A stretch of DNA of 35,545 bases from Patescibacteria group bacterium AH-259-L07 (GTDB taxonomy: Bacteria; Patescibacteriota; Patescibacteriia; UBA2591; UBA6264), in assembly GCA_027718005.1 (NCBI GenBank), contig JALLOP010000003.1, positions 1 to 35,545 of the forward strand, in the 5' to 3' direction. Below, piece by piece: positions 1,348-31,089 of the stretch. Within the stretch, counting starts at the first letter, position 1; each line of letters begins with the position of its first letter. A program made the position numbers and the translations under genes. The notes under the pieces were generated by a model. That model did not search any database, was not told where the DNA came from, and saw only the letters and a program-made list of their open reading frames with translations.

Positions 1348-1387
1348 GGGTCCCGACCTCCAAGAGGAGGTCGGGACCCGGAGGGGG
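1348..1387. repeat. GC-rich palindromic element (CCGACCTCC/GGAGGTCGG family)
   Basis: Perfect 14-bp stem gggtcccgacctcc-aaga-ggaggtcgggaccc plus ggaggggg tail; inverted relative at 10954-10992. Confidence 0.85.
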
Positions 1388-1462
1388 CGTTTGAGGAATT
1401 AAAGTCATTTCTTTTGTCTTGATTTCTCACTTTGCTCGGGATGACAAAAAAAGTGGGATGAC

Positions 1463-1493
1463 AAAAAAGAGACATGGTATTCCATGCTCTTTT
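1463..1493. terminator. Probable bidirectional intrinsic terminator
   Basis: aaaaaa-gagacatgg-tatt-ccatgctc-tttt between convergent genes. Confidence 0.6.
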
Positions 1494-7450: not shown

Positions 7451-10045
7451 ATGGCAGTTGGGGATAAGTATAACCATCAAAAAATTGAGCAAAAGTGGCA
7501 GAAAATATGGGAAGAGTTAGGGTTGTATAAAGCTCAGGATTTTAGCAAACGGCCAAAATCCTATATTTTAATTGAGTTCCCGTATCTTTCTGGAGATGGC
7601 TTACATGTAGGACATGGCAGGAGCTATAGCGCGCTCGATGCTATTGCGCGAAAACGGAGAATGCAAGGGTATAATGTGCTGTATCCCATAGGATGGGATG
7701 CATTTGGTTTGCCTACTGAAAATTATGCAATTAAAACCGGGATTCATCCCATTGAGATTACTAAGAAAAATGTTGCGTTATTCCGCCGCCAGCTCAAAAG
7801 CTTAGGGCTTTCATTTGATTGGTCTCGCGAGATTAATACTTCTGACCCAATATATTATAAATGGACGCAGTGGATTTTTTTAAAAATGTTCGAATGTGGC
7901 CTTGCCTATTTGGCAGAGATTCCTATTAATTGGTGTCCGGAATGCAAAATTGGGCTGGCTAATGAAGAAGTAATTGGTGGCAATTGTGAGCGATGCGGAA
8001 AAGAAGTAGAGCGGCGTCAACAAAAGCAATGGATGCTCAAAATTACTGCCTATGCTGATAGATTATTAAAAGATCTTGATGGGATTGATTATTTAGAAAA
8101 AATCAAAGCTCAGCAAGTACATTGGATTGGTCGATCAGAAGGGGTAACAGTAAAATTTAAAGTCAAAAGTTTCAGCCCAAGGCTGATCCGCCCCGGGCGG
8201 AAAAAGTCAAAGGTTGATGAAGTCGTTGAAGTTTTTACAACCAGGGCGGATACGTTGTTTGGGGTGACAGCGCTGGTGTTAGCACCAGAGCATAGGCTGA
8301 TCACTGATTGTTTATCATTGGTTGAGAATAGAAAAGAAGTTGAAGAATATATTAAGCAATCAAAGAAAAAATCAGAATTTGAAAGAACTGAATTAGAAAA
8401 AGAAAAAACAGGCGTACTGCTTAAAGGTATGTATGTCATTAATCCAGTCAATAATGAAAAAGTGCCTATTTGGATTGGCGATTATGTTGTTGCAACCTAC
8501 GGTGGTGGCGCGGTTATGGTGGTGCCTGCTCATGACAAACGAGATTATGCATTTGCAAAAAAATATGGTTTGGAAATTAGGGAAGTCGTAAAAGGCGGCG
8601 ATATTAGCAAAGAAGCATTTGTTGATTATGGGATATTAATAAATTCTGGGAAGTTTAGCGGGTTAGAGTCAAAGGAGGCCATTAAAAAAATTGGGAAATG
8701 GTTAGAACGGCATAAAAAAGGAGAACAAGAAGTTCAGTATAAGCTTCGTGATTGGGTGTTTTCTCGTCAGCATTATTGGGGGGAACCGATCCCGCTTGTT
8801 TTCTGCGAAAACTGCGCGGTCAAAATCAAAAATCAAAAATCAAAAATCAAAAATTTTAGTCAGGGAGAATTGTTAAATCCTGGATGGAAAGCTGTGCCGG
8901 AAGAGGATTTGCCACTTGAGCTGCCCTATGTGAAAAGCTATAAACCAACTGAAACAGGTGAGTCGCCGTTGGCACATATTAGTGAATGGGTTAATACCAC
9001 ATGTCCGAAATGCGGCTCAAAAGCAAAACGAGAAACCGATACCATGCCAAACTGGGCAGGTTCAAATTGGTATTTTCTCCGCTATATTGACCCCAAAAAT
9101 GATAAAGTCTTAGCAGATTATAAAAAACTGAAATATTGGCTGCCTGTTGATCTATACAACGGCGGTATGGAACATACTACGCTTCATCTGCTCTATTCCC
9201 GCTTTTGGCACAAATTCTTATATGACATCGGCGTTGTACCAACCTCAGAGCCATATAAAAGACGACGGTCTCATGGCATGGTATTAGCTGAAGACGGAAG
9301 AAAAATGAGTAAAAGTTTTGGCAATGTAATTAATACAGATGATATTGTTAATACTTTTGGCGCAGACGTGTTTCGTGTATATGAGATGTTTATGGGCCCG
9401 TTTGATCAAGCTATTGCATGGAATCCTAAGACAATATTGGGCGTAGATAGATTCCTGGCTAAAGTAAGAAATATTACCCTTGGTGTCATCCCGAGTTCGT
9501 CTACCTTGTCATCCCGAGCGAGCGGAGTTCCGATGAAATCGGAACAGGCGAGCGAGGGACGAGATGACAATTTAGAACAACTAATGCATCAAACAATCAA
9601 AAAGGTAAGCGAAGATCTGGATAATATGAAGTTCAATACCGCGGTTGCGGCGTTAATGGAGTACACAAATGAACTTATAACGCAATATGGAAAACTGAAA
9701 ACTGAATATATCGAAACGCTATTGTTGTTGTTGGCGCCGTTTGTACCGCATATAACTGAGGAGTTATGGCATCGAATCCATCCTAAATTATCAGAAAAAC
9801 GAAGTATATTTAAAGAACAATGGCCTGGATATAATCTAAGGTTAGCAAAGAGCAAAGAAATAGAGCTTGTTATTCAAATCAATGGTAAAGTACGTGATAA
9901 GACAAGGACAAATGCAGATATTTTAGAAAAACAGGCCGAGAAATTGGCATTAAAACAAAAAAAAATTCAAACGTATATAAAGGGAAAGAAAATTAAAAAG
10001 ATTATATTTATAAAAGGAAAGTTAATCAATCTAGTGATTGATTAA
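7451..10045 (+). CDS. leuS: Leucine--tRNA ligase with three repeat-derived in-frame inserts
   Basis: FPYLSGDGLHVGH (HIGH), GWDAFGLP, editing domain FTTRADTLFG / VPAHDKRD, KMSKS, C-terminal QINGKVR. Confidence 0.98.
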   Translation: MAVGDKYNHQKIEQKWQKIWEELGLYKAQDFSKRPKSYILIEFPYLSGDGLHVGHGRSYSALDAIARKRRMQGYNVLYPIGWDAFGLPTENYAIKTGIHPIEITKKNVALFRRQLKSLGLSFDWSREINTSDPIYYKWTQWIFLKMFECGLAYLAEIPINWCPECKIGLANEEVIGGNCERCGKEVERRQQKQWMLKITAYADRLLKDLDGIDYLEKIKAQQVHWIGRSEGVTVKFKVKSFSPRLIRPGRKKSKVDEVVEVFTTRADTLFGVTALVLAPEHRLITDCLSLVENRKEVEEYIKQSKKKSEFERTELEKEKTGVLLKGMYVINPVNNEKVPIWIGDYVVATYGGGAVMVVPAHDKRDYAFAKKYGLEIREVVKGGDISKEAFVDYGILINSGKFSGLESKEAIKKIGKWLERHKKGEQEVQYKLRDWVFSRQHYWGEPIPLVFCENCAVKIKNQKSKIKNFSQGELLNPGWKAVPEEDLPLELPYVKSYKPTETGESPLAHISEWVNTTCPKCGSKAKRETDTMPNWAGSNWYFLRYIDPKNDKVLADYKKLKYWLPVDLYNGGMEHTTLHLLYSRFWHKFLYDIGVVPTSEPYKRRRSHGMVLAEDGRKMSKSFGNVINTDDIVNTFGADVFRVYEMFMGPFDQAIAWNPKTILGVDRFLAKVRNITLGVIPSSSTLSSRASGVPMKSEQASEGRDDNLEQLMHQTIKKVSEDLDNMKFNTAVAALMEYTNELITQYGKLKTEYIETLLLLLAPFVPHITEELWHRIHPKLSEKRSIFKEQWPGYNLRLAKSKEIELVIQINGKVRDKTRTNADILEKQAEKLALKQKKIQTYIKGKKIKKIIFIKGKLINLVID
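8170..8202. repeat. 33-bp double-hairpin element in leuS
   Basis: tcagcc-caa-ggctga followed by tccgcc-ccg-ggcgga; reverse complement of 24526-24558 at 30/33. Confidence 0.9.
8820..8853 (+). repeat. Heptamer tract (TCAAAAA)n in leuS
   Basis: Encodes KIKNQKSKIKN. Confidence 0.85.
9484..9569. repeat. Composite TGTCATCCCGAG…GATGACA element in leuS with a nested hairpin
   Basis: tgtcatcccgag at 9484 and 9507, inner gttccgat-gaa-atcggaac at 9527-9545; complementary end gctcgggatgaca also at 1434-1446. Confidence 0.85.
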
Positions 10046-10067
10046 AAGTAAAAAGGGAAAACCAAAA

Positions 10068-10156
10068 ATGAAAAACCACAAGGAAAAGTTCAAAACCGAA
10101 TTGAAATCGCAAAGGTTCTTAGAGCAAATATTTTCACTGCAAAAGGACGAAGATAG
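10068..10156 (+). pseudogene. Internally deleted four-helix-bundle protein gene remnant
   Basis: MKNHKEKFKTEL joined out of frame to IEIAKVLRANIFTAKGRR*; flanked by A-rich and T-rich degenerate heptamer arms. Confidence 0.55.
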
Positions 10157-10219
10157 TTTTACGTTTTAAAATGTCGTTTTTACTTTTTCATTTTTAAATT
10201 TTAATTTAGTGAAGCGCTT

Positions 10220-11143
10220 ATGTCTTTATTACAACAGACAAAAAATTTGTGTAAACAATATCATATTACGCCCCTCAGACGTCGGGGACAAAATTTTTTA
10301 ATTAACCCTTTCATTGTAGAAAAAGTAATAGCAGCAGCAGGTTTAGATAAGAACGATATCGTAATAGAAGTTGGAGCAGGATTAGGGACATTAACAAAAC
10401 AAATAGCAAAACAGGTTAAAAAGGTAGTAGCGATAGAAATTGATAAAAAGCTGGTTCAAGTGTTAAGCGATGAATTATGTGATTACAAAAATGTAGAAAT
10501 AGTTCATGGCGACATACGAGATCCTACCAGCTACAAGCTACCAGCTACAAGCTATAAAATCGTGGCGAATTTGCCATTTAATATTACTGGTCTAACGTTA
10601 AGAAAATTTTTGGGGCGAAAGAATAGGCCGGAGGTAATGGTGGTGATTGTGCAAAAAGAAGTTGGCGAGCGAATTATAGCCCGTCCCTCAAAAAGGGGAC
10701 GGGATGACAAAAAAGGTAAAATGAATTTATTAGCTGTTTCAGTTCAATTTTATGCTCATCCTGAGATTATATTTTGTATAAGTAAAAATAATTTTTGGCC
10801 CAAGCCAAAGGTGGATTCAGTTATTTTAAAGATCGTTCCCTCGGGAGGGCTGACCTCCAAAAGAGGCCGGACTTTTGATGAGAAATTTTTTCAGATAGTG
10901 AAAGCTGGGTTTTTACATTCTCGGAAGTATTTACTTAACAATTTAGCAACCCTCCCCCTCCGACCCCCGACCTCCCGAGGAGGTCGGGGGTCTACAGCTT
11001 TAAAAAATAGTGCTATAATGATTAAATCATTAAAACAAGAATTGATGAAAATTTTTAACGAGATTGGGTTGAGTCCAAGAGTTAGGGCCCAGGAGTTGTC
11101 AGTGGAAAAGTGGGTCGCTTTAGTTAATAAATTATGCCAGTAG
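10220..11143 (+). CDS. rsmA: 16S rRNA adenine dimethyltransferase with four repeat-derived inserts
   Basis: GQNFL, IEVGAGLGTLT, AIEID, IVANLPFNIT, QKEVGERI, FWPKPKVDS, RAQELS. Confidence 0.96.
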   Translation: MSLLQQTKNLCKQYHITPLRRRGQNFLINPFIVEKVIAAAGLDKNDIVIEVGAGLGTLTKQIAKQVKKVVAIEIDKKLVQVLSDELCDYKNVEIVHGDIRDPTSYKLPATSYKIVANLPFNITGLTLRKFLGRKNRPEVMVVIVQKEVGERIIARPSKRGRDDKKGKMNLLAVSVQFYAHPEIIFCISKNNFWPKPKVDSVILKIVPSGGLTSKRGRTFDEKFFQIVKAGFLHSRKYLLNNLATLPLRPPTSRGGRGSTALKNSAIMIKSLKQELMKIFNEIGLSPRVRAQELSVEKWVALVNKLCQ

Positions 11144-11787
11144 AAAAACAAAATAGACGTTTAGTATTATTTCTTACAATTTTTAGTGTTTTTATTTTTG
11201 TAGTGGGTTATTTTCAGTTTAGGCATGCTATTTATGCGCCGTTTGGTGGTGTTTCTAAAGAACAAACATCACAGCAAATCGAACAGGAGTTATCTACATT
11301 AGTTTTACAAGACGTGGATAAAGACGGGCTAACTGATTTTGATGAACAGTTTGTATATTCTACTTCACCATATATTGCTGATACTGATAGTGATGCATAC
11401 TCTGATAAAGAAGAAGTTGATGCAGGGAGTAACCCTTTAGACCCAAAAAGCACTCCGTATGCGGTCAGAAAAGAGTCGGGAATTCAAACACAAAAAGAAG
11501 GGCCCGCCTCTGCTGAAGCTTCCGCCTCCACTAAAGTTTCGGCGGACAAAACGGCGGGCAAGGAGGAGATTTTAGAGAAAGTATTTCCGGCCCCGGAAAT
11601 AATAGAAGAACCTACCCAAATTTTTAAAGAAAATTTGACTGGGCAGGAGATTAGAGATTTGTTAATACAATCTGGAATAGATAAAGATATTGTGGATAAG
11701 ATGGATGACAAAACCTTAATAAAGTTGTATAATGAAACTATACAAGAAACTGGTATTAACCTAGAGAAATTACAAGGCGCTGAATAG
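11134..11787 (+). CDS. Membrane-anchored protein with TSP3-like Ca-binding Asp repeats
   Basis: N-terminal TM; DVDKDGLTDFDE and DTDSDAYSDKEEVDAGSNPLD; start overlaps the rsmA stop. Confidence 0.75.
   Translation: MPVEKQNRRLVLFLTIFSVFIFVVGYFQFRHAIYAPFGGVSKEQTSQQIEQELSTLVLQDVDKDGLTDFDEQFVYSTSPYIADTDSDAYSDKEEVDAGSNPLDPKSTPYAVRKESGIQTQKEGPASAEASASTKVSADKTAGKEEILEKVFPAPEIIEEPTQIFKENLTGQEIRDLLIQSGIDKDIVDKMDDKTLIKLYNETIQETGINLEKLQGAE
11503..11562. repeat. Nested pair of CCGCCTCxGCTAAAGCTTCGGCGG-type hairpins, in frame
   Basis: Inner copy 11521-11550 (30 nt) inside outer cccgcctctgctgaagct|acggcgggcaag. Confidence 0.85.
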
Positions 11788-11825
11788 AATAGAGGGCCAG
11801 TTTTGTGTTCGGTAATATTAATTTT

Positions 11826-14800
11826 ATGAGTTACTCAGGGTTTAAAAAATCAGTTTTAGTTAGTTTGATCACTATTTTGATGTTAGTTAGTTTATTTTTG
11901 CCTAAAACGGTTCATGCTCAATTTTTGATTTCTGATCCTGCAGGATTACTTCGAGATATTGGTGAGTTTGCGTGGAAACAGGCTAAGGATTTGGCCAAGG
12001 CAGCGTGGAAGCACGGCGGTGCGTTAGCATACAAAAATACTGTTAACTTTTATTTAGGCGAGATGGCTAAGCAAAGCGCTGAATGGGTGGCGACCGGCGG
12101 AAAAGGGAAAAAACCTTTATTTGCAAGGGATCCTGCTTTTTGGTCCAAATTAGGCGATCAAGCATTAGGAGAATTGATTGATCAGTATTCAAAAGGTTTT
12201 ACCGGAAGAAGCTTATGTGATCCATTTGATCCTACCATTCGTTTTAAAATGCTGGTTTCTATGGACCCAAAGTATCGGGAGATTAAGTTTGATGAGCAAT
12301 TGCGGTGTCCGGTGAGCAAAATCAAACAACGAATAAAAGAGGCAAGCAAAAAAAAGCTTTTTGAGTTTGATTTTGATTTGCGTGATGGACCAGTTGCTGG
12401 GTATAAAGCAAACATGCGGATTATTATAGCAGGAGATAGTGTTTTAAATAAAAATTATACCGGGATCACCAATGCGACTCATGTTTGTTATTCAGATCCA
12501 TCTCTTGATTTGAGCCAGTTTCCTCTTGGGTGTTTAGGGATTTTTGGATTAGGAACGGTAAATAAGGGCGTTGAGAAATTAATTGATATTACGTATAAAC
12601 TTGAAGATATGGGGAAGGAGCTTGAGCGGATTATTACTATATTAAAGCTTTTTGAAGCAGATCAAACCGAGATACGAGAAAAATTAGATGAATTAAATCA
12701 ACAACATATAAAGGCGCAGGAGGACATAATAGCTGCAGAAAACGCAGGCGTGCCAAGGGATCACCTGATACTGTTTTTTCTTAACAAAGATAAAGACAGG
12801 ATAAGGAAACAAATAGATAAGCTTGAGAAAATGCGTATAGATAAAGCCGAACAGATTGAGGCAGTTAATGACCTTATTAAATTACAACGAGATTTAGTAG
12901 ATAATATATGGGCATGGGAATTACTAGATAAAAATCCTGACACACCTGATATTCCTGGTGGACCTCATACGCTTTCTTTTTGGAGCCATTATACTCCTAT
13001 TTGTTCTGCTTTAGGAGATATGAGAGAATACATGAATAACGATGGATGTTTTGAGATTTCTGCTTTAGCAGTAGGTACAAATTTTGCTCCACTTACTATA
13101 CAAGAGGCATATACTAATTCACTTGCATATACCAAACGAGCTAATTCATACGTAAGACAATTAGTTGACTGGGCAAACACATTAGGAGATATGATTGAGG
13201 ACACAAAACTAAGTGATGATAAGGTACTGGAGACCCCAGATCTTGATCCATTAGAGGATATTAATCGTATGTATAACCCTGAAGGCAGTGATATTGGCGT
13301 ATTAGCAAGAATAGAATCTGATCTGTTGCGAAAGCAAACAACCGAAGTAGAAAAGTCTAAATTTTTCCAAACACTTCAGGGGCAAATGAATTCGTTGACA
13401 ACACAAATTTCTGATTTAGTAAAAACGCCATCGATTTATGTGAGTGAATCTGCGAGTCAAGCAGTAGAACAAGGCACTGCTGGGCCATTACAGTATACTG
13501 AAGTTGCGGCAGTTGACGCGATTGGTATTTTTACCAATACGTTGATTAATAAACTTTTAAAACAAATTTTTGAGACTGGGTTTAATCCACAACTTACCCC
13601 AGAGCTTGCAGAGAGAACAAAGCCATTTTTAGATGATGAAGGAGAGTCCGGCAGTCCATGGAGTCCATCGCGCCAGCAAAGCCGAGCCCTGTTTGCTGAT
13701 TTAGCTACGGCTCAATTAAAACGAGGACGAGAAATAACGATTTATGATGAATTTAACGTTTGTCCAAAAAATCCAGCGTACGCACTCCCCACCAATTGTT
13801 TATTAGAAGATAAAGACGGTAATACAATATTGCGAGCAGTAGAGGAAGGGTTGACCATAGCAGATGTTATAGAGAAAGGATTGGGCAGCGGCGCTTTAGT
13901 TGGCCGGCCAAATAATAATACCGGTCTTTTAAGTTTGACTAATATTAAAAAGTTACGGCGGGCACGTATTTTCCCTCTCGGGTTAGAAATTGCTGCTTCT
14001 AAAATTTATAATGGAGAACTTGGTGAAGATCCTGAATACACCCTAGAAGATATTGTTAACGAGTTTAATCAAACAAATTCGTTGGGCACATGTACCGATT
14101 TCAACGGAAGTTTTGAAAATGATGTTAATGACGATAATATCCCAGATGGATGGGTTCTGGGAGGCGATGTTTCACTTGAGACAAGCGAGGTACATTCAGG
14201 TTCTGTTGCATTGCGATTGAGCGGGAGTGGGTGGACCTCTAAGGTACGGCGGACCATCCCTATAAAATCAAATACGGTGTATACCATTTCAACATATGCA
14301 AAAGCAGAGAATAATAAACAACTATTTATTGGTCTATATTTTTATGATAAAGATGGCAATCAATTATTAGCATCTGGTTCAGCTGATGAGATTAATATTA
14401 GCGGTGGATTTGACTGGAGAAAAGGATGCGGCGCATCCTCATGTTATGCAACTGGCAGCATTAGTTTAACCAATACGTATGAGCAGTATGCGTATAGTTT
14501 TCGTTCCTTGCCTGATGCAGCCAGTGTAGAGCTTGTTCCCGAAGGTGCAGCACTTGCTGGTGCTCAAAGCGGAGATGTATTAATTGATGATGTTCAATTG
14601 ACGAGAGGGCAAACTGCTTCAGAAGAATATATGGAGCCATCGCCATTTTGTCATTTAGTTGACTCGAATTGGATATTTAAGAATTTAACCTATCAATGTG
14701 AAACTATTGGTTATTCAGCAATTCCTTTGCCCGGCAGTACTCAGCGTCAGGAAACGTGTGTTGATCTGCGTGATTGTATTAATGAAGATGAAAATGGACA

Positions 14801-17800
14801 ATGTGATACCTGGGGGTATTGTACGCGTGAAAAAAATACATGGCGTTTTAGTGGTAATTCTTGCGATGAGCAGTATGCAACATGCAAGACCTATATACGC
14901 TCAAAAGATAAAAAGCAGGTTTCGTATATAGAAAGAACAGTTGATTTTGGTGAGTGTACTGAAGGCAGTGTTGGGTGTAAATGGTACTGTACTGATTGGG
15001 ACGAAGATAATGGGCGTTGGCAATGTGCTGAGCCGGGAAAGGCACAATGTATAATAACTTCGCCTGCGCCAAGCGGCGGACAAAATTGTGTTTGTGATGG
15101 GACTAACGGGTGTTCTTTTGGTTTTTGTACTGTTAGAGAGGGCGAGAAATCTTGTTTAGTTGATAGTCCTGGCAATGCAATATTTTTTAATACTAATGTT
15201 GAGCAGTGTTTACCCGAAGTTGAAGGATGTAATGAATATATTAGAACCGTAGATGCGCCGCCAGCCCCAGATGGCTCAATAGATGATGAAGCATATAACA
15301 TTAATGATATAATTTATTTAGCAAGCGCTCCCACGTGTCAAGCAAAATATGTAGGATGTCAAATCTATACCCCTTCTGATCAAGGAGTTGCGATTCCGGG
15401 AATTGTAAATGTAGATGATCGATGCGAGGCTCAATGTGTTGGGTATGAAACATTTCAACAAATGCCAACTCATTTTGATACAAATACGAGCTGGGTTAAT
15501 TTTATTCCCGAGACCGCGAAGATGTGTTCGGTTCCTGGATGTGAGGAATTTACTAATTTAGATACGGTGACGCAAGGAGGGGAAGGATTAGAGTATTATG
15601 CATATCTGCGGCACTGCGCCAAGCTTCCTGATGAGGCAGCAAGCTGCGCTAATTTTTATACATGGATTGGATCTGAAACTACGGGATACCAATTAAAACG
15701 GTATCAATTAAAAGCTGATAATAATAACGAGCCAGAAAGAGTTTCTGCTTATAGTGAGGCAAAGAATGTATGGGACAAATGTGAGGATGCGACTGATTCT
15801 TTTTTTAATCCACATTGTAAAGAATTTTATAACGAATCAGGCATATCATCGTATCGTTTATTTAGAAATACGATTAGCTGTTCAGAGGAGTGCTCTCCTT
15901 ATCGGAGAACTATTGATGGGTCTTCGCGTATGGCAATTCCAAATCAGGGAGAAGTATGTAGTTTAGCTGATGTTGGATGCTATGAATATAAAGGACCAAC
16001 TGCTAATAATATACGCATATTATTTACTGATGATTTTGAATCAGGAATAGTTACGCTATGGCAGGGTGGAGAAATTTCCTCAGAATCAGTCAATCCTCCT
16101 CCCAGTTCATCAATGGAAGTATCAGGGGGCGAGGCTTCAAAGAAAGTGGCTAGTTTGGTCGCGCAAAATAAATCATATTTCCTCTCTTTCTGGGTTAAAG
16201 GAATTAATAGTATTAGCGCTCGGTTTTCTTCACTATCTTCTCAACCAAGATCCGGGCTTGATGCAAGTGAATGGGAAGAAGTACAATTAGGCCCGTTTTA
16301 TTTTGATACGGCGCCTCAAACTAATGAAACACTGTTCATTACCGCTGCTGATATTTTCTATATTGACAATATTACGCTCAAAGAAATATCTGATGATGTA
16401 TATGCAATTAAGGATTCATGGTTTACGCCGCAAATTTGTGATCAAGATTTTCAAGACAATGATATCCTTGGCGCAAAGCTTGGGTGCCGTCTTTATACTG
16501 ATAAAGATAATGATCCACATTATTTAAAATCATTTACCCGTTTATGTAAAGATTCTGATGTCGGGTGTGAAGCATTAATTGATACACAAAATTATTCAGC
16601 TTCACGTACGGGCGGCACGTTTAATGATGACAATACTGATTCAAAAGATAATGTAACGGTTCCTGCTGATGAAGTAGTGTATCGTGTTAATGATAAAGAG
16701 TATTTTTGTCAGGCAAAAGATAAGGGGTGTGAGAAAATGGGGCTGCCTCAATTAAGGCAAGATAATACGGTAGAGCGCTATGATACGGTATATATAAAAA
16801 ATGATCCTGAGCTTTATACAAAAGAGCCACTGCTTTGCCAGATTGAAGATTTAGGGTGTGAGGCATATGAGGGCGAGGGCGGTAATAGATATTTTAAAGA
16901 TCCAGAGATTACTAATAAGCTGTGTGAGTATCGAGAAAATGTTTTGATAGGAGGAGAGGCTAAAGTTGGCTGGTTTAAGACTGACACTGATCAGCCATGT
17001 TATGATAATCCTGTTTATTATCAACCGGATAGTCTTACCTATGGTATTCGTTCAGCTTATAAAGTATGTGATGCCGGGGATAATATTGGCAACGCTTGTT
17101 TGAGTGATGCTGATTGTCAAGGAGAGACCTGTGTCAAGATCTATGATGGTTGGGTCGGGATTTGTCCGCGCAGTCAGAATAGTTGTACCGCGTTTTTTGA
17201 TCCAGGCTGGGCTGGCCGCAAAGGTACTAATATACAACAAGAGGGGGCAGAAGTTAGGAAACTTGAAACTGGTTTTAGGGAGGGAGATTTCCATATTGCC
17301 GTTCAAGCGGCTGCACCTGCGTTAGTATCATCATCATCATCATTTACACCTCTCCCCCAATATTATTATTATCTTAACAACGAGAGATTGGATAGAGGAG
17401 CAGAAGAATGTCAAGCGCAAGTTTCATTAAAACGAGGTTGTATCCTTTTCAACGATCCAAATATTTCTTCTTCATCATACAGTAGTTTGGCCACTTACAT
17501 AAAATCAGCTCAATCAGATGTTCCTGATGGGCCTGTAGTCCCTGTTGATTGTGAACCAACTCCTAAACCTGATTGTACTGATCCATTAAATGCAGAGCGT
17601 GAGTATTGTTTGTATTGTGATCCATATGGGCAGGAAAGAAATGATACGAATGCCATAATAAAGGTGCGCAGAGATCGGACTTGCGGTGAATGGTTGAGCT
17701 GTACTAGTTTTCATTTAGAGACTTCAGGGGGAACAACCCGTCAAGTTTGTGATGAAGTAAGTCGTTGTGATGAACTTGTTGGATCGGGAGAAGCCTCACG

Positions 17801-20150: not shown

Positions 20151-20196
20151 TAAACGTAATGCGTAATGCGTAATTTATTTTGAGTTTTGAAAAATA

Positions 20197-23100
20197 ATGA
20201 GATTTAATTTATTTCAAAAATTTGGATTCCTCCCAAATCGGGGGTCGGACCCCCGATTTTGGGGATTGTGGAATGACACAAAAAAGTGGTTTGTTTTACT
20301 GCTGTTTTTTATTGTTATTGGTGGTGTTTTAATTCCTGAACAAGCACATGCTCAGCTTTTTGGTATATTTAAAGCAGTTAATGAGGGCGTAGCGTCTTTA
20401 TTCGCAAATATATTTCTTTTATTGGCAAATTTGGTTGGTCAGCTTTTATCAGTCGTGATTTATGTATTAGTCCAAGTGGTTCAATATAATGGTTTTATTA
20501 GTTCTCCGGCAGTTTCAAAAGGATGGATTATTATCCGCGACTTGTTTAACATGTTTTTTGTGGTGATTTTGCTGGTTATTGCGTTTTCTGCGGTGTTAAA
20601 AATAGAGAAGTATCCATATAAGCGCATGTTGTCAGCTTTTTTAATTGCGGCCGTATTGGTGAATTTTTCTAAATTAATTTCCGGGGTATTAATTGATTTT
20701 AGTCAAATTTTAATGTTGACGTTTGTGAATGCGTTTAAAGATGTGGCAGGGGGCAATTTTGTTGAAATGTTAGGACTTAAAGAAATAATGAGTTTGAGTG
20801 CGAATGTCGGCGCAGAAGTGATTACTCCATGGAAAACAGCGATTACCATTATGTTAGGTTTTATTATGGCGCTCGTTGCATTGGTGGTAATGATAGTGGT
20901 GACCCTTATATTTGTATTTCGCATTGTAGGACTTTGGTTTTTAGTGGTGTTGTCTCCCTTAGCATTTATGGCGATGGTTCTACCATCAACACAAAGTTAT
21001 GGCAGGCAGTGGTGGCAAAAATTTACCAATTATTTAATTGTTGGGCCGGTATTGGCATTTTTTATTTGGCTTTCATTAGCCGTTGTGCAGGAACCTGGCG
21101 GCAGACAACTTTTACCCGCAACTGAAAGCATCGGTGGTGAGTTTAGCGTAGGCGTGTCCCAAATTGGCCAGCCCCAATATATGCTTAATTTTATCATTGG
21201 TATTGCCATGCTGATCGCATCACTTATGGTGGCAAAACAATTAGGCGTTGCCGGCGCGGGTCTCGCAACCCAGGCAGTTGGCAAGCTTCAAGGAGTTGCT
21301 ACGGGTGCTATTAAACTGCCGTTTAAAGGCATGAAATTCGGCGCAAAAGAGATGGTCAAGACTGCAGAAGCAGGAATAGGGATTCCCTTGACAAAAGAAC
21401 GGTGGCAGCAAGCATGGCAGACACGGCGAACAAAAGTTAAGGAAAAAAGAGAGGAAAAGTGGGCCAGGAGAAGAATGCCAGGACTTCCTGCTGGATATGA
21501 GGAGTGGGGAGATGTAATGTCATTGAAAGGATTAGCTTCATTTCCAAAACATATTATACAGGGTTTTACTGGAAAAGCGCAAAGACTACGTAAGGACGCA
21601 GAAGGAAAAGAGGATGTATATGACAAGATTGGACAGGGAATAAAAGCAAAAAGTTCCCGAGAAGATCGTGATAAGCTAGATAAAGATATTGATGAGACAA
21701 CTCAGGATATAATTACGGCTAAAAGGGATAGCAAAGACTTTGGGGCCAGGGGCACAATGACGTTCTCTCATTTTGATGATTTTTCAAAAACCTTAATACA
21801 AGAGAGAGATCTCCTGCGTGAATCAAAAGAGGCTAAGGATCAAAAGCGAGCAAAGGAATTAGATGATTTAATTAAGAGTCTTAAGATTGGGAGGGGCAGG
21901 GCTAAAAAGGCAGGACAACGAGAAGTTGGAGCAAGTAATTTAATATCTGATAGAGATTTATATAAAAATGAAGCGTCGAAATGGTATACTAAACAAATGC
22001 AGACCAAAGAAAGCCACCTGAATAATTTAACTGAGAAAAAAAAGAATACTGAATTTAGCGAAGGCGATCAAAGCGAGATTAAGAAAAATTTACAAGTTCT
22101 ACAGGCAGAGATACAAGAATTTGATATTGATGATACTGCAAAAACAGGTCTTTTAGATAATGTTAATAGTGCATTAAAAAATGTGAGCGTTCCCTTAGAT
22201 GAGTTGACACCGGAGGCAAGAAAAGAAATGGCAGATGCTATGTGGGATGTACAGCAAAAAATACAACAATTAAGAGATGAGGAGGAAATAGGAATGCCAG
22301 AAGCAGAAACCCCGCTTGAGCAAATACAAGACAGTCATTTCCGATTATCAAAAGACGTAATCGCGGATGAAGATATGAAAAAATTAAAAGAAGATCAGGA
22401 GAAAAGGAGGCAGGAAATTCTTGGTTTACGCGCTCAAGCTGAGATGATTAGCCCGACTACTATGACTCCGGATCAGCGAGAAGCCATAAACCGAGGCACA
22501 TATCGAGAATATGAAAAATTGAAAGGAATAGATAGTGCCCCAGAGTTAATGACATTATACGCTCGTGCAGAAAAAGAAAAAAATGCCAATCTTGCCCGAG
22601 CAGTAATTACAAAATTAAATGATCAATTTGACATTAATGAGCTTTTAGAAGTATATGATTTAGAACAGGGTTGGAAAGGTATGGCTGACTTAGCAGATAG
22701 ATTGAAAGAAAACTTTGATATTCCTGAACAGCAAGCATATTCATTTATGAATGATATCGGGGCGACAAATAAACTAAGAGGCAATTTTAAGTTTGTAATG
22801 CCCTTTAAGAAAGATCAAAAAACTGGCAGATTAGAGAAAGTTACCCAGAAGCAGCACGAAGAGTTTGCATATATTGAATCGGGAAAGATTGCTGCTCAGC
22901 AATTGTGGGGTAGAGGAAGTTGGGGAGGAGTATTTGCCAAGCATAAAGATCCAGTCACCGGTCAGCGCGTGCCCATTTATGATGATCTGGTTGGAAAAAT
23001 GTTTAAAAGAGCAATGGGGACAATCGAGTATGAAGGAGTTCATAGAAATAGATTGCTGCCCGAGATTACCGCGGGTTTATCTCATCCCAATGTTATGGGA

Positions 23101-23244
23101 GGACTGAAAGGGCTGCGCCCAGGGCTTGCTCCGGCTGATAGACAAAGACTTGATAATATTCTCTCATGGCTCGAGGGCCAGCAAGGGAGTTATTGGGGAA
23201 GAGAAGGCGGCGAAAAGATAGAACCGGTAATGAGTAGCGAGTAA
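20197..23244 (+). CDS. VirB6/TrbL-like polytopic membrane protein with a long charged C-terminal tail
   Basis: Multiple TM helices in aa ~30-350, including RIVGLWFLVVLSPLAF…WWQKF; ~600 aa coiled-coil-like tail; context beside PrgI and VirB4. Confidence 0.75.
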   Translation: MRFNLFQKFGFLPNRGSDPRFWGLWNDTKKWFVLLLFFIVIGGVLIPEQAHAQLFGIFKAVNEGVASLFANIFLLLANLVGQLLSVVIYVLVQVVQYNGFISSPAVSKGWIIIRDLFNMFFVVILLVIAFSAVLKIEKYPYKRMLSAFLIAAVLVNFSKLISGVLIDFSQILMLTFVNAFKDVAGGNFVEMLGLKEIMSLSANVGAEVITPWKTAITIMLGFIMALVALVVMIVVTLIFVFRIVGLWFLVVLSPLAFMAMVLPSTQSYGRQWWQKFTNYLIVGPVLAFFIWLSLAVVQEPGGRQLLPATESIGGEFSVGVSQIGQPQYMLNFIIGIAMLIASLMVAKQLGVAGAGLATQAVGKLQGVATGAIKLPFKGMKFGAKEMVKTAEAGIGIPLTKERWQQAWQTRRTKVKEKREEKWARRRMPGLPAGYEEWGDVMSLKGLASFPKHIIQGFTGKAQRLRKDAEGKEDVYDKIGQGIKAKSSREDRDKLDKDIDETTQDIITAKRDSKDFGARGTMTFSHFDDFSKTLIQERDLLRESKEAKDQKRAKELDDLIKSLKIGRGRAKKAGQREVGASNLISDRDLYKNEASKWYTKQMQTKESHLNNLTEKKKNTEFSEGDQSEIKKNLQVLQAEIQEFDIDDTAKTGLLDNVNSALKNVSVPLDELTPEARKEMADAMWDVQQKIQQLRDEEEIGMPEAETPLEQIQDSHFRLSKDVIADEDMKKLKEDQEKRRQEILGLRAQAEMISPTTMTPDQREAINRGTYREYEKLKGIDSAPELMTLYARAEKEKNANLARAVITKLNDQFDINELLEVYDLEQGWKGMADLADRLKENFDIPEQQAYSFMNDIGATNKLRGNFKFVMPFKKDQKTGRLEKVTQKQHEEFAYIESGKIAAQQLWGRGSWGGVFAKHKDPVTGQRVPIYDDLVGKMFKRAMGTIEYEGVHRNRLLPEITAGLSHPNVMGGLKGLRPGLAPADRQRLDNILSWLEGQQGSYWGREGGEKIEPVMSSE

Positions 23245-23276
23245 AAGAAAATAAAAAATAGTGATTTACTAAAATT

Positions 23277-25202
23277 ATGGCAGAGAAACAATCCTCCTCT
23301 GCTAAACCTGTCCGTCCGGCAGGCGGAGCTTCGGAGGACAAAGAAAAAAAAATAGATTTTAAAGATAAAAAAGTAAGAAAGTCGCTCTATAAAGAGATTG
23401 GCCAGGGTTTTTATGATAATCCAACAAAGATTAAACAGTGGAATAAAAAACGAGCAGCCTTGGAGGAGTTTTTAAAAGAAAATAAGACGCTGCCTGAAGA
23501 TAATCCTTCTTTATATAAAGAATGTCAGGATTTATTAACTCGGCTTCAATGGTATTCATTTTTCTTTATTTCTTCAGACGATGCAGTTAATCTTTTTAAG
23601 TCGGGGATTAATATTGCGCTTTCGGAAAAGTCTTTTCCTCTAGAGACATATTTAAGTGTATTTTTGCTCAATATTCCTTCACTTACTTTACGAGATGAGT
23701 ATAAAGGAAAAATTCGCCAAGCAGTAGTAGAAAGTAAAAAAAGAATAACCTCAGGAGATATTAGAACAGTTGCTGATTGGCTTACATTGTATAATAGGGA
23801 ATTAGGAACAGGAGAAGTGGAAAAAGTAAGAGTGGCAGAATTTTTAAATAAAAATGAACATATTATTAAACTGTCTTCATCTGAAAAAACAAAGATCAAG
23901 AGGCTTTTTGAATTGTATGAAGAATTAAAAATTCCTGCTAACACTATTGAGGGACTTGAAGAAGAAGTATATGTGCTTAATGAACAAGGGGAACTAGAAT
24001 TTCATAAAAGAGGAAAGGTGGAAAATATAACAAGAGCAGTTGAGCGGGAAGAAGCAATGGAAGAAGCAAAAAAAAAGCCGTCCCCACCTCCACCAATTAA
24101 TTTAAACACCGCAATAAAGAATGCGATGGAGGGCGCAGGCCTTACATTACCTGACCAAGCATTACAAAAAAGATTTGAAAATATTGCTAAATCATATTTT
24201 GGTAATGTACGTACTGAAATTGAAACGCGCATTGTATTAAAACGGGATACAAAAGTTGGCGGTATGGGGCTTGATGACGAAACAGCAGATAAAGTTATAA
24301 ATATATTTAAAAAAGAAAAGCCGCAGGTCACTGTTGAAGAGCCAGTTAAAACGCCCGGCGTTAAACAGGCTATTTCTAAGCCAACGCCGGGCGTTAGCAA
24401 GAAACCGGATACAGGATTGGCTAAAGAATTAAGGCCGCCGGAGGAATTAATTGCTGCAGAGACAAGAATGCAGGCTGTGTCACGTAAACCAGAAGAAAAA
24501 CCTAAAAAAGCGCTTGAAGAAAAACTTCCGCCCAAGGCGGATCAGCCTCGGGCTGAAAAAGAACCGGAAATTAAACCAGAACCAAAATTAGAAGAAAAGC
24601 AAGCGCCAGTATCTGAACCTCGGCTTGTTCAAGAAAAAAAGGTTGAACCACCAAAAGAAGTAAAAATTGAGGAAAAAGTTGAACCCAAAAGAGCACCTCA
24701 GGCAGCGCCGAAAGCAGGGGCCCCTCCGCCTACTCCAGAGCCGCCCAAGGCAGAACCAGAAAAACCTCCATCTCCTGCGCCTATAAAACCAGTAACACCG
24801 CCAGTACCAGAAATAAGAAAACCAGCTGCCCAACCGCCAGAAGGAAAACCAATAGCCGAAGAAATAAGAGTTAAGCCGCGAGCACAGGGACCTGTTGATG
24901 AATTGCGGTATCTTACTTTAGGTGACTGGCGTAGATGGGGTTCAACTCAGGATGCGGCCCAAAAAATTCAAGATAAAATTAATTTATTAGCTGAAGAATC
25001 ATTAACTAAAAAAGCAGAAGCGGTAAAAGCATGGAAAGAGTCAGAAATTAGTAAATTGTATTTACAGCTTGGCGAGGAATCAATTAATGAGGGAAAATCA
25101 GTTGAAGAGGTTATTAAAGATCGCCAGCAGACTGGAAAACAAACTTTGACCAAAGAGGAGTTTGATGCAGTAGTAGGACTTAATCGAAAGCTACGCTTTT
25201 GA
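23277..25202 (+). CDS. Hypothetical cytoplasmic protein with a Pro/Glu/Lys-rich linker
   Basis: 641 aa ORF in the operon; helical ends separated by a PEK-rich region. Confidence 0.75.
   Translation: MAEKQSSSAKPVRPAGGASEDKEKKIDFKDKKVRKSLYKEIGQGFYDNPTKIKQWNKKRAALEEFLKENKTLPEDNPSLYKECQDLLTRLQWYSFFFISSDDAVNLFKSGINIALSEKSFPLETYLSVFLLNIPSLTLRDEYKGKIRQAVVESKKRITSGDIRTVADWLTLYNRELGTGEVEKVRVAEFLNKNEHIIKLSSSEKTKIKRLFELYEELKIPANTIEGLEEEVYVLNEQGELEFHKRGKVENITRAVEREEAMEEAKKKPSPPPPINLNTAIKNAMEGAGLTLPDQALQKRFENIAKSYFGNVRTEIETRIVLKRDTKVGGMGLDDETADKVINIFKKEKPQVTVEEPVKTPGVKQAISKPTPGVSKKPDTGLAKELRPPEELIAAETRMQAVSRKPEEKPKKALEEKLPPKADQPRAEKEPEIKPEPKLEEKQAPVSEPRLVQEKKVEPPKEVKIEEKVEPKRAPQAAPKAGAPPPTPEPPKAEPEKPPSPAPIKPVTPPVPEIRKPAAQPPEGKPIAEEIRVKPRAQGPVDELRYLTLGDWRRWGSTQDAAQKIQDKINLLAEESLTKKAEAVKAWKESEISKLYLQLGEESINEGKSVEEVIKDRQQTGKQTLTKEEFDAVVGLNRKLRF
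24526..24558. repeat. 33-bp double-hairpin element (inverse of the leuS copy)
   Basis: ttccgcccaaggcggatcagcctcgggctgaaa; encodes PPKADQPRAE. Confidence 0.9.
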
Positions 25203-26374: not shown

Positions 26375-26483
26375 AGAATGCAGAATGAAGAATGAAGAAT
26401 TGGGGTAGAGCTCATTCATTATTCTAAATTCATCATTCATCATTGAAAATAATTCATCATTCTAAATTCATAATTCATAATTG
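26370..26483. repeat. Inverted heptamer tracts (AATGAAG)n…(ATTCATC/A)n
   Basis: Left arm 26370-26401; right arm present twice (26414-26444, 26452-26483). Confidence 0.85.
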
Positions 26484-31080: not shown

Positions 31081-31089
31081 TAAATAGTA

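What the first reader, a model, noticed from the sequence alone, without database searches (positions are those of the whole stretch)
7451..25202. Multi-family system of tiny palindromic elements that write new peptides into proteins
At least 11 in-frame repeat-derived inserts: leuS (8170, 8820, 9484), rsmA (10524, 10680, 10846, 10954), the TSP3 gene (11503), VirB6-like (20227) and the Pro-rich gene (23292, 24526). Related sequences are also intergenic (1348, 1434). All leave ORFs intact, including an essential synthetase. Known analogue: Rickettsia palindromic elements, but these are shorter (about 20-90 nt), belong to several families, occur in either orientation and nest. Inference: an active or recent micro-mobile-element system whose enzyme is encoded elsewhere. 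This is the best candidate for an undescribed system here.
Basis: partly seen in the sequence, partly recalled or inferred. Interest (0 to 1): 0.85.

Follow-up and report, generated by a model that had tools for sequence, protein, structure and literature searches.

The report
Hairpin repeats written into bacterial proteins
An ultra-small (Patescibacteria) bacterium carries many families of short GC-rich hairpin repeats, and a good share of them sit in frame inside essential genes and add small loops to the proteins; this kind of selfish DNA is already known from Rickettsia and other bacteria, but not from this group.

Summary
I support 8 of the 11 claimed sites as repeat-derived, in-frame palindromic inserts: 8170, 9484, 10680, 10954, 11503, 20227, 23292 and 24526. 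Two others (8820, 10524) are non-palindromic 7-nt tandem arrays, which is a separate class. One (10846) has no support.

- **Genome-wide excess.** GC-rich perfect hairpins are about 10-fold over-represented: 227 loci against 21-43 in simulations. Of these, 84 lie inside ORFs, including dnaE, rpoB, secA, ligA and nusA.
- **Comparative evidence.** Orthologues lack the inserts. A roughly 91%-identical relative in a public metagenome lacks 30 nt exactly at the leuS element.
- **A larger element.** A 160-225 nt multi-hairpin element is inserted in the same reading frame in iscS, the RNR gene and murC, and in two genes of the sister genome.
- **A candidate enzyme.** An enzyme candidate exists for one family. 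Three RAYT-like Y1 transposase genes are flanked by cognate hairpins, and the window's 20235 hairpin is identical to one of them.

The best reading is therefore a REP/RAYT-type and RPE-like system, not a categorically new one. One apparently undescribed feature is that these transposase genes carry an in-frame copy of their own hairpin, a pattern that recurs across Patescibacteria.

This scan had already noted such in-frame hairpins (e1-3837644) and in-frame heptamer arrays (e1-3837640, e1-3837641) on other pieces of this genome.

The parts
1348..1387 (.). Intergenic palindrome of the family that also sits in rsmA. A 28-nt direct repeat (1308-1335 and 1389-1416) flanks it.
   Evidence: I25, D14; cluster 1, 29 loci
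1434..1470 (-). Two degenerate TGTCATCCC tags (read on the minus strand), intergenic.
7451..10045 (+). leuS, the host gene of two palindromic inserts and one heptamer array.
8170..8202 (+). Double-hairpin element (family A) in frame in leuS. A close relative lacks 30 nt here.
   Evidence: I1; table 4
8822..8854 (+). 7-nt tandem array (4.7 copies) in leuS. It is not palindromic and belongs to a separate repeat class.
   Evidence: 8785-8891 is replaced by 144 letters in the relative
9484..9569 (+). TGTCATCCC-tagged palindrome (tags at 9484 and 9507) in frame in leuS.
9527..9546 (+). Inner hairpin nested in the 9507-9569 palindrome. It also occurs alone on 5 other contigs.
10220..11143 (+). rsmA (ksgA), the host gene of two palindromic inserts.
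10524..10554 (+). 7-nt tandem array (4.4 copies) in rsmA, with no length change against orthologues.
10676..10708 (-). TGTCAT-tagged hairpin in rsmA. It gives a clean 9-residue insert in a coil of lowered confidence.
   Evidence: absent 15/15; pLDDT blocks 151-170: 79, 71
10954..10992 (.). Palindrome of the 1348 family in frame in rsmA, at the model's lowest-confidence loop.
   Evidence: I25; pLDDT <50 at residues 251-258
11503..11565 (+). Composite palindrome (family E) in the linker of a TSP3-repeat protein gene.
   Evidence: (joint 11460>11556)
20235..20260 (.). REP hairpin identical to those flanking the C63 Y1 transposase gene. It is in frame between the conserved start and the signal peptide of ORF 20197-23244.
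23290..23341 (+). Composite palindrome (family E) giving a 19-residue insert after the first codons of ORF 23277-25202.
   Evidence: absent 6/6
24526..24558 (-). Family A double hairpin, inverted relative to 8170, in the Pro-rich linker of ORF 23277-25202.
   Evidence: (I1)

Best explanation
The window shows several families of short GC-rich stem-loop repeats of the REP / miniature-transposon kind. They have spread through an AT-rich, gene-dense Patescibacteria genome.

**Proposed mechanism**

1. The hairpins are recognised and moved as single-stranded DNA, in trans. For at least one family the enzyme is an IS200-like Y1 (HUH) tyrosine transposase of the RAYT type, encoded elsewhere in the genome.
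2. Insertions land wherever they land.
3. In genes, selection keeps only copies whose length is a multiple of three, that lack stop codons, and that fall in permissive surface loops, linkers or N-termini.
4. Those copies are translated and add 9-25 residues. A larger nested element adds 55-75 residues, as RPEs do in Rickettsia.

**Shown**

- The repeats have many copies, and stem changes are compensated.
- Elements nest within one another.
- In-gene copies are in frame.
- Orthologues lack the inserts, and a close relative differs at one site.
- The transposase genes are flanked by cognate hairpins.

**Inferred**

- That the transposases mobilise the repeats.
- That the inserts are translated.
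- Which enzyme, if any, moves families A, E and the TGTCAT-tagged family.
For: **Excess of hairpins**

- There are 227 merged loci against 21-43 in simulations. For stems of 9 bp or more the figures are 86 against 0-5.
- They form 15 multi-copy clusters, with sizes 41, 29, 14, 12, 8 and so on, plus 94 singletons.
- By location, 136 are intergenic, 84 are inside ORFs of 100 aa or more, and 7 are at ORF edges.
- The 84 in-ORF loci lie in 73 ORFs, and 53 of them are in ORFs of 300 aa or more.
- Of the 20 largest such ORFs I fetched, 16 have Pfam families above the curated cut-off: DnaE, RpoB, SecA, PNPase, LigA, NusA, a PBP, a Mur ligase and others.

**Insert status**

- The rsmA insert is absent from 15 of 15 orthologues.
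- The N-terminal inserts are absent from 6 of 6 and 5 of 5 orthologues.
- In IscS, residues ~180-242 are absent from 12 of 12 relatives that have the gene.
- A relative's contig lacks 30 nt at the leuS element.
- In the RsmA model (pLDDT 88.8), both inserts lie in coil at the lowest-confidence stretches.

**Constraint at the nucleic-acid level**

- Stem changes are compensated in the larger element: 5 of 33 consensus pairs changed on both sides. One hairpin is replaced by a different hairpin at the same position in 3 of 10 aligned copies.

**The frame filter**

- All 4 in-gene copies in G000 have lengths that are multiples of 3 and are open in one frame. Of the 6 complete intergenic copies, 3 are multiples of 3 and 2 are open in that frame.
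- Two further in-gene copies in the sister genome use the same frame.

**The enzyme**

- PF01797 gives 4 hits in this genome.
- The C63 gene (224 aa) is flanked on both sides by inverted copies of the hairpin found at window 20235.
- H79, H81 and Y138 are invariant in 28 homologues.
- The best fold match is 4er8_A, a REP-associated tyrosine transposase bound to a REP hairpin (E 2.3e-6).
- The family is present in 29 of 55 genomes of the order. It gave at least 588 confirmed stretches in genome contigs, and most of the 80 loci kept carry Patescibacteria-type titles.
Against: **Weak link between enzyme and repeats**

- Only one window element (20235) matches a transposase-flanking hairpin exactly. 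The 1348 and 10954 palindromes merely cluster with it through shared 10-mers.
- Families A and E and the TGTCAT-tagged family have no enzyme assigned.
- The cognate REP is rare. The exact 26-mer was found at 5 places, and a family pattern matched 18 places. Classical REPs number in the hundreds.

**Family membership is incomplete**

- The transposase scores 41.8 bits against NCBIfam REP_Tyr_transpos, below the cut-off of 80.
- Sequence search finds no PDB relative.
- The transposase-flanking hairpins show no GTAG tag (reading).

**Limits of the data**

- No RNA or protein data exist, so translation of the inserts is inferred.
- Up to about a quarter of the 7-bp-stem in-ORF loci could be chance, given 21-43 loci expected genome-wide.
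- ORFs were called crudely, as the longest non-overlapping frames of 100 aa or more.
- The genome is 75.6% complete and in 148 contigs.
Confidence: 0.65

Rival explanations
1. The hairpins are recognition sites of a site-specific single-strand nuclease of the Ssn (GIY-YIG) type, or of another non-transposase host factor. On this view their spread and maintenance serve a host function such as control of DNA uptake or recombination, or transcript ends, and the copies in genes are tolerated by-products.
For: - The TGTCAT-tagged hairpins resemble the published NTS repeat in layout (passages of PMC11893778).
- The tag TGTCAT[TC]CC has 102 strand-hits. I estimated roughly 12-17 expected from base composition, by hand rather than by a tool.
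- There are 27 strand-hits (23 places) of perfect tagged hairpins.
- One small single-domain GIY-YIG gene exists on C44. It resembles UPF0213 proteins (1zg2, E 1.4e-5).
- One family (12 loci, 11 of them intergenic) has hairpin-plus-T-run shapes like terminators.
Against: - The paper's degenerate SRM pattern gives 4 hits against 0, 1 and 2 in three simulations.
- The C44 gene is not flanked by such hairpins in the 1100 bases I read.
- I saw no closely spaced pair of tagged hairpins around any gene (reading of the list).
- This reading does not explain the other families or the hairpins flanking the transposase genes.
Confidence: 0.12
2. The palindromes are not mobile. They arise in place by template switching or slippage, which makes inverted copies of neighbouring sequence, and they are then homogenised by gene conversion.
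For: - At rsmA 10680 the left arm of the hairpin falls on codons that orthologues also have (A-R/Q-P).
- A 28-nt direct repeat flanks the 1348 palindrome (D14).
- Flanking direct repeats of 10 nt or more are somewhat more frequent than at control positions: 14 of 82 against 8.3% of 410 controls.
Against: - Identical or nearly identical 26-54 nt elements lie at unlinked loci in unrelated sequence contexts.
- The same 160-225 nt element sits in different genes in two sister genomes.
- There is no consistent flanking duplication.
Confidence: 0.1
3. The inserts are removed before the protein is made, either by RNA splicing or processing or by ribosomal bypassing, as with the GC-rich byp hairpins of yeast mitochondria (recalled, not read here). 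The proteins would then not carry the extra peptides.
For: - Stems are compensated, which fits an RNA-level role.
- Inserts of 55-75 residues inside core enzymes such as IscS are large.
Against: - Every in-gene copy I examined keeps the frame and is free of stops. The measured indels are 30 and 27 nt. All 6 in-gene copies of the larger element use one open frame. A removed element would not need this.
- There is no Rfam family in the window at gathering scores.
- Eight loci carrying the larger element gave only one tRNA hit at E<=0.1.
Confidence: 0.06
4. The pattern is an assembly or binning artefact, with repeats joined wrongly into genes.
For: The genome is a fragmented bin of 148 contigs. 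The relative's contigs break near some elements, at 9429/9584 and at 10963.
Against: The reading frames stay intact across every insert. Independent genomes of the order show their own in-frame hairpins in the same loops. The sister genome carries the larger element in frame.
Confidence: 0.02

Closest known systems
REP / REPIN repeats with RAYT (REP-associated tyrosine transposase) genes
   Same: - The repeats are short GC-rich hairpins dispersed in the genome.
- A Y1 HUH transposase gene is flanked by inverted copies of its cognate hairpin.
- The fold is closest to 4er8.
- The HUH histidines and the tyrosine are conserved.
   Different: - About a third of the loci are intragenic.
- Copy numbers per family are low.
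- There are several transposase paralogues per genome.
- The score is below the NCBIfam equivalog cut-off.
- The transposase gene itself carries an in-frame copy of its hairpin.
Rickettsia palindromic elements (RPE), as summarised in PMC10969869 and PMC3733652 (passages read)
   Same: - These are palindromic elements of ~150 bp inserted in frame in unrelated housekeeping genes.
- They encode a conserved peptide.
- There are several families.
- The 160-225 nt element here behaves the same way.
   Different: - The phylum and the sequences are different, though likeness to RPE sequences was not tested.
- Here smaller hairpins nest inside the larger element.
- A candidate transposase is present here.
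Intragenic GTAG- and CGTC-tagged REPs (Di Nocera et al. 2013, PMC3733652; passages read)
   Same: - Single or paired REPs are inserted in frame and encode 20-30 residues.
- Many lie at N-termini.
- The hosts include replication and repair genes and tRNA synthetases.
   Different: - The tags differ: TGTCAT in one family, and none seen in the others.
- Host genes here are spread over many functions.
- The paper's list of intragenic REPs is in a supplement that I could not open.
NTS / SRM hairpins and Ssn GIY-YIG single-strand nucleases (Chenal et al. 2025, PMC11893778; passages read)
   Same: The layout is the same: a tag followed by a GC-rich hairpin. The TGTCAT-tagged hairpins found have this layout.
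   Different: - The published degenerate pattern is barely enriched (4 hits against 0-2).
- The only small GIY-YIG gene is not flanked by the hairpins.
Heptanucleotide tandem arrays of prokaryotes (named in earlier notes e1-3837640 and e1-3837641; the papers were not read here)
   Same: - 8822-8854 and 10524-10554 are arrays of period 7 with 4-5 copies.
- Period 7 is the commonest period in this genome, at 102 of 511 arrays, and 26 of those are inside ORFs.
   Different: They are not palindromic and are not part of the hairpin families.

Membership tests
REP/RAYT system | A Y1 (HUH) IS200-like transposase gene is present | tested here: met
   PF01797 gives 4 hits in the genome. The C63 protein scores 31.3 bits against a cut-off of 23. 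The best fold match is 4er8_A, E 2.3e-6.
REP/RAYT system | HUH histidines and the catalytic tyrosine are conserved | tested here: met
   H79, H81 and Y138 are invariant in 28 aligned homologues.
REP/RAYT system | The protein passes the curated RAYT model (NCBIfam NF047646) | tested here: not met
   It scores 41.8 bits against a cut-off of 80.
REP/RAYT system | The transposase gene is flanked by inverted copies of its cognate hairpin | tested here: met
   C63 has hairpins about 50 nt upstream and about 30 nt downstream, with inverted loops. In a wider set, 44 of 70 parsed loci have a flanking hairpin and 23 have one on both sides.
REP/RAYT system | The same hairpin is dispersed in high copy through the genome | tested here: inconclusive
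   The exact 26-mer is at 5 places. A family pattern matches 18 places. The genome is 75.6% complete.
REP/RAYT system | A conserved 5' tetranucleotide tag (GTAG or CGTC) is present | tested here: not met
   I saw no GTAG or CGTC next to the C63 hairpins (reading). A different family carries TGTCAT.
REP/RAYT system | The repeats are mostly extragenic | tested here: not met
   84 of 227 loci lie inside ORFs of 100 aa or more.
REP/RAYT system | The enzyme cleaves and joins hairpin single-stranded DNA | not testable with these tools
   This needs biochemistry.
Rickettsia palindromic elements (RPE) | In-frame insertion in unrelated genes with a conserved encoded peptide | tested here: met
   All 6 in-gene copies use the same frame: IscS, RNR, MurC and one other ORF in G000, plus two ORFs in G001.
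Rickettsia palindromic elements (RPE) | Sequence likeness to the RPE families | not tested
Rickettsia palindromic elements (RPE) | The insert is retained in the mRNA and the protein | not testable with these tools
   No RNA holder was listed.
Ssn / SRM system | Hairpins match the published SRM pattern in excess | tested here: not met
   There are 4 hits against 0, 1 and 2 in three simulations.
Ssn / SRM system | A single-domain GIY-YIG gene is flanked by the hairpins | tested here: not met
   The C44 gene (88 aa) has no such flanks in the 1100 bases I read.
Self-splicing intron or other known RNA family | A match to a curated RNA model | tested here: not met
   The window gave 0 matches at gathering scores. 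Eight element-bearing loci gave only one tRNA at E<=0.1.
Heptanucleotide tandem arrays | Period 7, several head-to-tail copies, no palindromy | tested here: met
   8822-8854 has 4.7 copies at 100% match, and 10524-10554 has 4.4 copies. Genome-wide, 102 of 511 arrays have period 7.

The most novel reading that the evidence does not exclude
In Patescibacteria, RAYT-like transposases and their hairpins may form a self-referential module. The transposase gene keeps an in-frame copy of its own cognate hairpin in one surface loop, and that copy co-varies with the flanking hairpins from lineage to lineage. This would give the enzyme a recognition site inside its own gene, for autoregulation or for cis-mobilisation. 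The same hairpin families would routinely write new loops into essential proteins of these minimal genomes, making them a standing source of lineage-specific protein insertions rather than mere junk.
Probability: 0.25. Interest if true: 0.75.

Novelty: new variant of a known kind. Interest (0 to 1): 0.55.

Why it matters
- **Origin of lineage-specific inserts.** Patescibacteria proteins are known for lineage-specific inserts. Here the source of some of them can be read directly from the DNA: selfish hairpin repeats filtered by selection.
- **A map of tolerated sites.** The inserts show where LeuS, RsmA, IscS, ribonucleotide reductase, MurC and others tolerate extra sequence.
- **A caution for analysis.** Such inserts can disturb the alignment and annotation of marker genes.
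- **Wider range for a known phenomenon.** In-frame REP/RPE elements now extend to a phylum with very small genomes.
- **A testable question.** The in-frame hairpin inside the transposase gene raises the question of how such enzymes recognise, and perhaps regulate, themselves.

Tried and rejected
- **RNA evidence.** No RNA holder was listed for 7451-11800, so expression and retention of the inserts could not be examined.
- **Rfam.** There were no matches in the window. Eight element-bearing loci gave only one tRNA.
- **Ssn link.** The SRM pattern is barely enriched. The only small GIY-YIG gene lacks flanking hairpins. Its membership of the Ssn family (cd10448) could not be tested.
- **PDB by sequence.** The transposase gave 0 hits. 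Only the fold search found relatives.
- **Target-site duplications.** I found no consistent one. Flanking direct repeats of 10 nt or more occur at 14 of 82 loci against 8.3% of 410 control positions.
- **Sister genome G001.** It has no match to LeuS above paralogue level and none to RsmA or IscS. It also has none to the three less conserved window genes. It is 77% complete, so orthologous sites in the nearest genome could not be compared.
- **One hairpin family in relatives.** The exact pattern occurs at 10 places in G000 and in 0 of 40 other genomes searched. This bears on that sequence only.
- **Alternative start at 20266.** An in-frame TTG could place the hairpin outside the coding region. 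Alignment of the start region with 5 orthologues favours the ATG at 20197 but does not prove it.
- **Sites rejected.** Sites 8820, 10524 and 10846 were rejected as palindromic inserts.
- **Literature.** I found no paper on REP or RAYT elements in this phylum.
  - 'repetitive extragenic palindrom' with 'Candidate Phyla Radiation' gave 1 paper. I judged it unrelated from its title and abstract start only.
  - 'Patescibacteria', 'palindromic', 'in-frame' and 'insertions' together gave 0 papers.
  - 'RAYT' with 'Patescibacteria' gave 27 papers. The 10 listed were gut, rumen or soil microbiome studies, judged by title.


Full report
**What the window is**

The window is contig C72 of a 1.41-Mb bin of 148 contigs with 37.8% G+C. 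It is 75.6% complete, and its relatives have genomes of 0.5-1.3 Mb. Relatives of one of its genes sit mostly in records titled Patescibacteria, Parcubacteria-type candidate phyla and the like.

The claimed region holds these genes:

- leuS (7451-10045);
- rsmA (10220-11143; TIGR00755 at 207 bits);
- a gene for a TSP3-repeat protein;
- a 2781-aa ORF with a carbohydrate-binding domain;
- a 1015-aa ORF and a 641-aa ORF with no Pfam or NCBIfam family at E<=0.001.

**Checking the eleven sites**

Eight sites hold up.

1. **8170-8202.** This is a double hairpin with an inverted copy at 24526-24558 (33 nt, 91%) and copies on C142, C2 and C62. It lies in a loop of LeuS whose length varies among 16 orthologues.
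2. **9484-9569.** This is a palindrome that begins with the tag TGTCATCCC and encloses a second hairpin at 9527-9546.
   - The nested whole recurs on C15 (51 of 54 nt).
   - The inner hairpin recurs alone on five other contigs.
3. **10676-10708.** This is a clean 9-residue insert in RsmA, absent from 15 of 15 orthologues.
4. **10954-10992.** This is of the same family as intergenic 1348-1379 (I25). It adds residues in a loop where 3 of 15 orthologues have inserts of their own.
5. **11503-11565.** This has copies on C19 and elsewhere. It lies in a linker that is not conserved in the order.
6. **20235-20260.** All 26 nt are identical to hairpins on C63 and C69. Aligned with 5 orthologues, it is an insert of about 19 residues between a conserved start and the signal peptide. 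None of the listed matches in the 43 other genomes that have the gene starts before query residue 23.
7. **23290-23341.** 50 of 52 nt are identical to a copy on C134. It is a clean 19-residue insert after the first codons, absent from 6 of 6 orthologues.
8. **24526-24558.** This is a family copy in a Pro-rich linker too variable for an indel call.

Three sites fail.

- **8822-8854 and 10524-10554.** These are 7-nt tandem arrays. The first lies in a segment that orthologues also have. The second causes no length change. Period 7 is the commonest tandem period in this genome, at 102 of 511 arrays, with 26 inside ORFs. Earlier notes of this scan describe the same class on other pieces of the genome (e1-3837640, e1-3837641).
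- **10846.** It has no second copy and no indel.

**More than chance, and genome-wide**

- Perfect hairpins with a stem of at least 7 bp, a loop of 3-9 nt and stem G+C of at least 0.6 number 391. Three Markov-2 simulations gave 24-34.
- Merged, they form 227 loci. For stems of 9 bp or more the count is 86, against 0-5 in six Markov-2 and 1-3 in three Markov-5 simulations.
- By shared 10-mers they form 109 clusters. Fifteen clusters have two or more loci (41, 29, 14, 12, 8 and so on) and 94 are singletons.
- With a crude ORF call (1218 ORFs, 83% of the bases), 136 loci are intergenic, 84 lie inside ORFs and 7 are at ORF edges.
- The repeats are therefore enriched between genes, yet more than a third are in genes.
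- The 84 in-ORF loci lie in 73 ORFs, and 53 of them are in ORFs of 300 aa or more.
- I fetched the 20 largest such ORFs, leaving out the window's own and the three already identified. Sixteen have Pfam families above the curated cut-off. They include Pol III alpha, RpoB, SecA, PNPase, aconitase, NAD-dependent ligase, a PBP, a Mur ligase, NusA, CheA and an HtrA-like protease.
- Some of the 7-bp-stem loci will be chance. Simulations give 21-43 loci genome-wide.

**Are they insertions, and are they recent?**

Besides the orthologue alignments above, a public sediment metagenome holds contigs of a relative. It was sampled in two runs of one sample. One contig differs from the window at 71 letters over 848 positions.

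- One contig in each run leaves out 5+9+3+13 = 30 letters at 8169-8201, which is the leuS element and a multiple of three.
- One piece covering 10623-10963 has 27 fewer letters net. The table does not show where the gaps lie.
- A contig joins 11460 to 11556.
- The stretch 8785-8891 is replaced by 144 other letters.
- The contigs end at 9429, 9584 and 10963, next to elements.

This is presence/absence variation between close relatives at the leuS site at least.

An AlphaFold model of RsmA (16-sequence alignment, pLDDT 88.8) puts both confirmed inserts in coil. They fall at its weakest stretches: blocks 151-170 score 79 and 71, block 251-260 scores 47, and residues 251-258 are below 50.

Other genomes of the order have their own in-frame hairpins in the same loops. 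Examples are LeuS and RsmA of G027 and RsmA of G020.

**A larger, RPE-like element elsewhere in the genome**

A multi-hairpin element of 160-225 nt occurs in many copies.

- A motif search found 11 copies.
- BLAST gave 21 matches in G000, 13 in the sister genome G001, 4 in G026, 3 in G053, and none in the other 51 genomes of the order.

Four G000 copies lie inside ORFs in the same orientation and frame. The ORFs are a cysteine desulfurase, a ribonucleotide reductase, MurC and one unnamed ORF; I named the first three by eye from their translations.

- In IscS the insert (residues ~180-242) is absent from 12 of 12 relatives that have the gene. In them the two halves of the match abut or lie within a few bases.
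- The four in-gene copies have lengths that are multiples of three and are stop-free in that frame. Of six complete intergenic copies, three are multiples of three and two are open in it.
- Two G001 copies sit in other genes in the same frame. One of these looks like ribulose-phosphate epimerase by eye.
- Smaller hairpin families are nested at fixed points of this element.
- Its stems show compensated changes, with 5 of 33 consensus pairs changed on both sides. In three copies one hairpin is replaced by a different hairpin at the same place.

This behaviour matches what reviews describe for Rickettsia palindromic elements (passages of PMC10969869).

**A candidate enzyme**

Pfam Y1_Tnp finds four places in the genome. 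One, on C122, is a remnant with a stop codon next to a 401-aa ORF that looks TnpB-like to me (not tested). The other three, on C63, C59 and C12, are paralogues of about 224 aa.

The C63 gene has the hairpin of window 20235 in three places:

- about 50 nt upstream;
- about 30 nt downstream, with the loop inverted;
- a third time in frame inside the gene, at residues 53-61.

Further evidence on the protein:

- It scores above the Pfam cut-off (31.3 against 23) but below the NCBIfam RAYT cut-off (41.8 against 80).
- H79, H81 and Y138 are invariant in 28 homologues.
- Its model (pLDDT 88.7) is closest to 4er8_A, the REP-associated tyrosine transposase bound to a REP hairpin (E 2.3e-6). IS608 and ISDra2 transposases follow.
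- The in-gene hairpin lies in a low-confidence coil (residues 42-67) between a helix and the strand before the HUH motif.

**The in-gene hairpin recurs**

The family is present in 29 of 55 genomes of the order.

- *The order set.* In 30 loci of the order, 13 have a perfect hairpin inside the coding sequence at residues 51-66. Twelve of those 13 share an 8-mer with a hairpin within 350 nt of the gene. Five loci have further in-gene copies near residues 160 or 235-240.
- *The filter misses imperfect copies.* The G001 locus scored negative, but it has the same imperfect hairpin both upstream and inside the gene.
- *A wider, independent set.* This was 80 loci from named MAGs, of which 70 could be parsed.
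  - 44 have a flanking hairpin.
  - 17 have one in the same variable loop, which makes up 27% of the coding length.
  - 10 of those 17 match a flank.
  - 8 have one elsewhere in the gene, and 5 of those match a flank.
- *Lineage specificity.* Each lineage has its own stem sequence, so the in-gene and flanking copies change together.

I found no description of this in the library searches named under Tried and rejected.

**How it most likely works**

1. Hairpin repeats are moved as single-stranded DNA by Y1 transposases acting in trans.
2. In a genome with little intergenic space, many insertions hit genes.
3. Only insertions that are in frame, stop-free and located in loops, linkers or N-termini survive.
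4. Those survivors are translated.

The repeat structure, the in-frame status, the absence from orthologues, the polymorphism and the link between transposase and hairpin are shown. Catalysis, translation of the inserts, and the enzyme for families A, E and the TGTCAT-tagged family are inferred.

There is no consistent target duplication. That fits this enzyme class as I recall it, but it is weak evidence.

**Rivals**

It rests on likeness of layout only. The published pattern is barely enriched, and the one small GIY-YIG gene lacks flanking hairpins.

In-place origin, removal before translation, and assembly artefact are each argued against by the data listed under the rival explanations.

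**Comparison with what is known, and verdict**

In-frame intragenic REPs have been described in several phyla. They encode 20-30 residues and up to 82, they are frequent at N-termini, and they occur in replication and repair genes and tRNA synthetases. Rickettsia RPE-4 and RPE-6 were equated with CGTC REPs (passages of PMC3733652; its supplementary list could not be opened).

So this finding is not a new kind of system. It is a variant of a known kind, distinguished by four things:

- the phylum;
- the number of nested families;
- the larger in-frame element shared by two sister genomes;
- the transposase genes that carry their own hairpin in frame.

I set interest at 0.55.

Noticed in passing
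G000 C63:4294-4965 (locus L022 1312-1986), loci L049-L078 and L101-L180: RAYT-like Y1 transposase genes across Patescibacteria carry an in-frame copy of their own flanking hairpin in one variable loop. In the order set this is 13 of 30 loci, and in a wider set 17 of 70. The in-gene sequence changes together with the flanking copies from lineage to lineage.
   Followed up: yes
G000 C6:753-2114, C35:10300-13878, C127:22320-23966, C22:1309-2055; G001 loci L192, L195: A 160-225 nt multi-hairpin element is inserted in one and the same reading frame in a cysteine desulfurase, a ribonucleotide reductase, MurC and other genes. Smaller hairpins are nested inside it.
   Followed up: yes
window 30375-30518: Two 20-nt arms that are 100% complementary, of a hairpin family found at 10 places elsewhere in the genome, flank 104 nt of AT-rich intergenic DNA. 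This looks like a miniature element with terminal inverted repeats.
   Followed up: partly
window 1308-1335 and 1389-1416: A 28-nt direct repeat (93% identical) flanks the 1348 palindrome. It duplicates the 3' end of ORF 49-1341. Such long flanking repeats are not general.
   Followed up: partly
window 8822-8854, 10524-10554, 20155-20174, 26370-26400 and genome-wide: Seven-base tandem arrays of 3-5 copies are the commonest tandem repeat in this genome, at 102 of 511 arrays. Twenty-six lie inside ORFs and 15 at ORF edges.
   Followed up: partly
G000 C35:10300-13878: Besides the hairpin element, the ribonucleotide reductase ORF (1193 aa) contains a long extra segment that looks like an intein to me by eye. 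I did not test this.
   Followed up: no
G000 C122:2001-3526: An IS200-like tnpA remnant with a stop codon lies next to a 401-aa ORF that looks TnpB-like. I did not test this.
   Followed up: no
window 31089-31113, 32516-32540, 34106-34130 and 32558-34240: Similar AT-rich hairpins follow a run of small paralogous genes. The starts of those genes share 21-30 nt repeats (D8, D13, D16, I6, I16).
   Followed up: no
window 5293-5854: Direct repeats of 70-110 nt (66-89% identical) lie inside the ORF at 5180-6022 on the minus strand (D1, D2).
   Followed up: no
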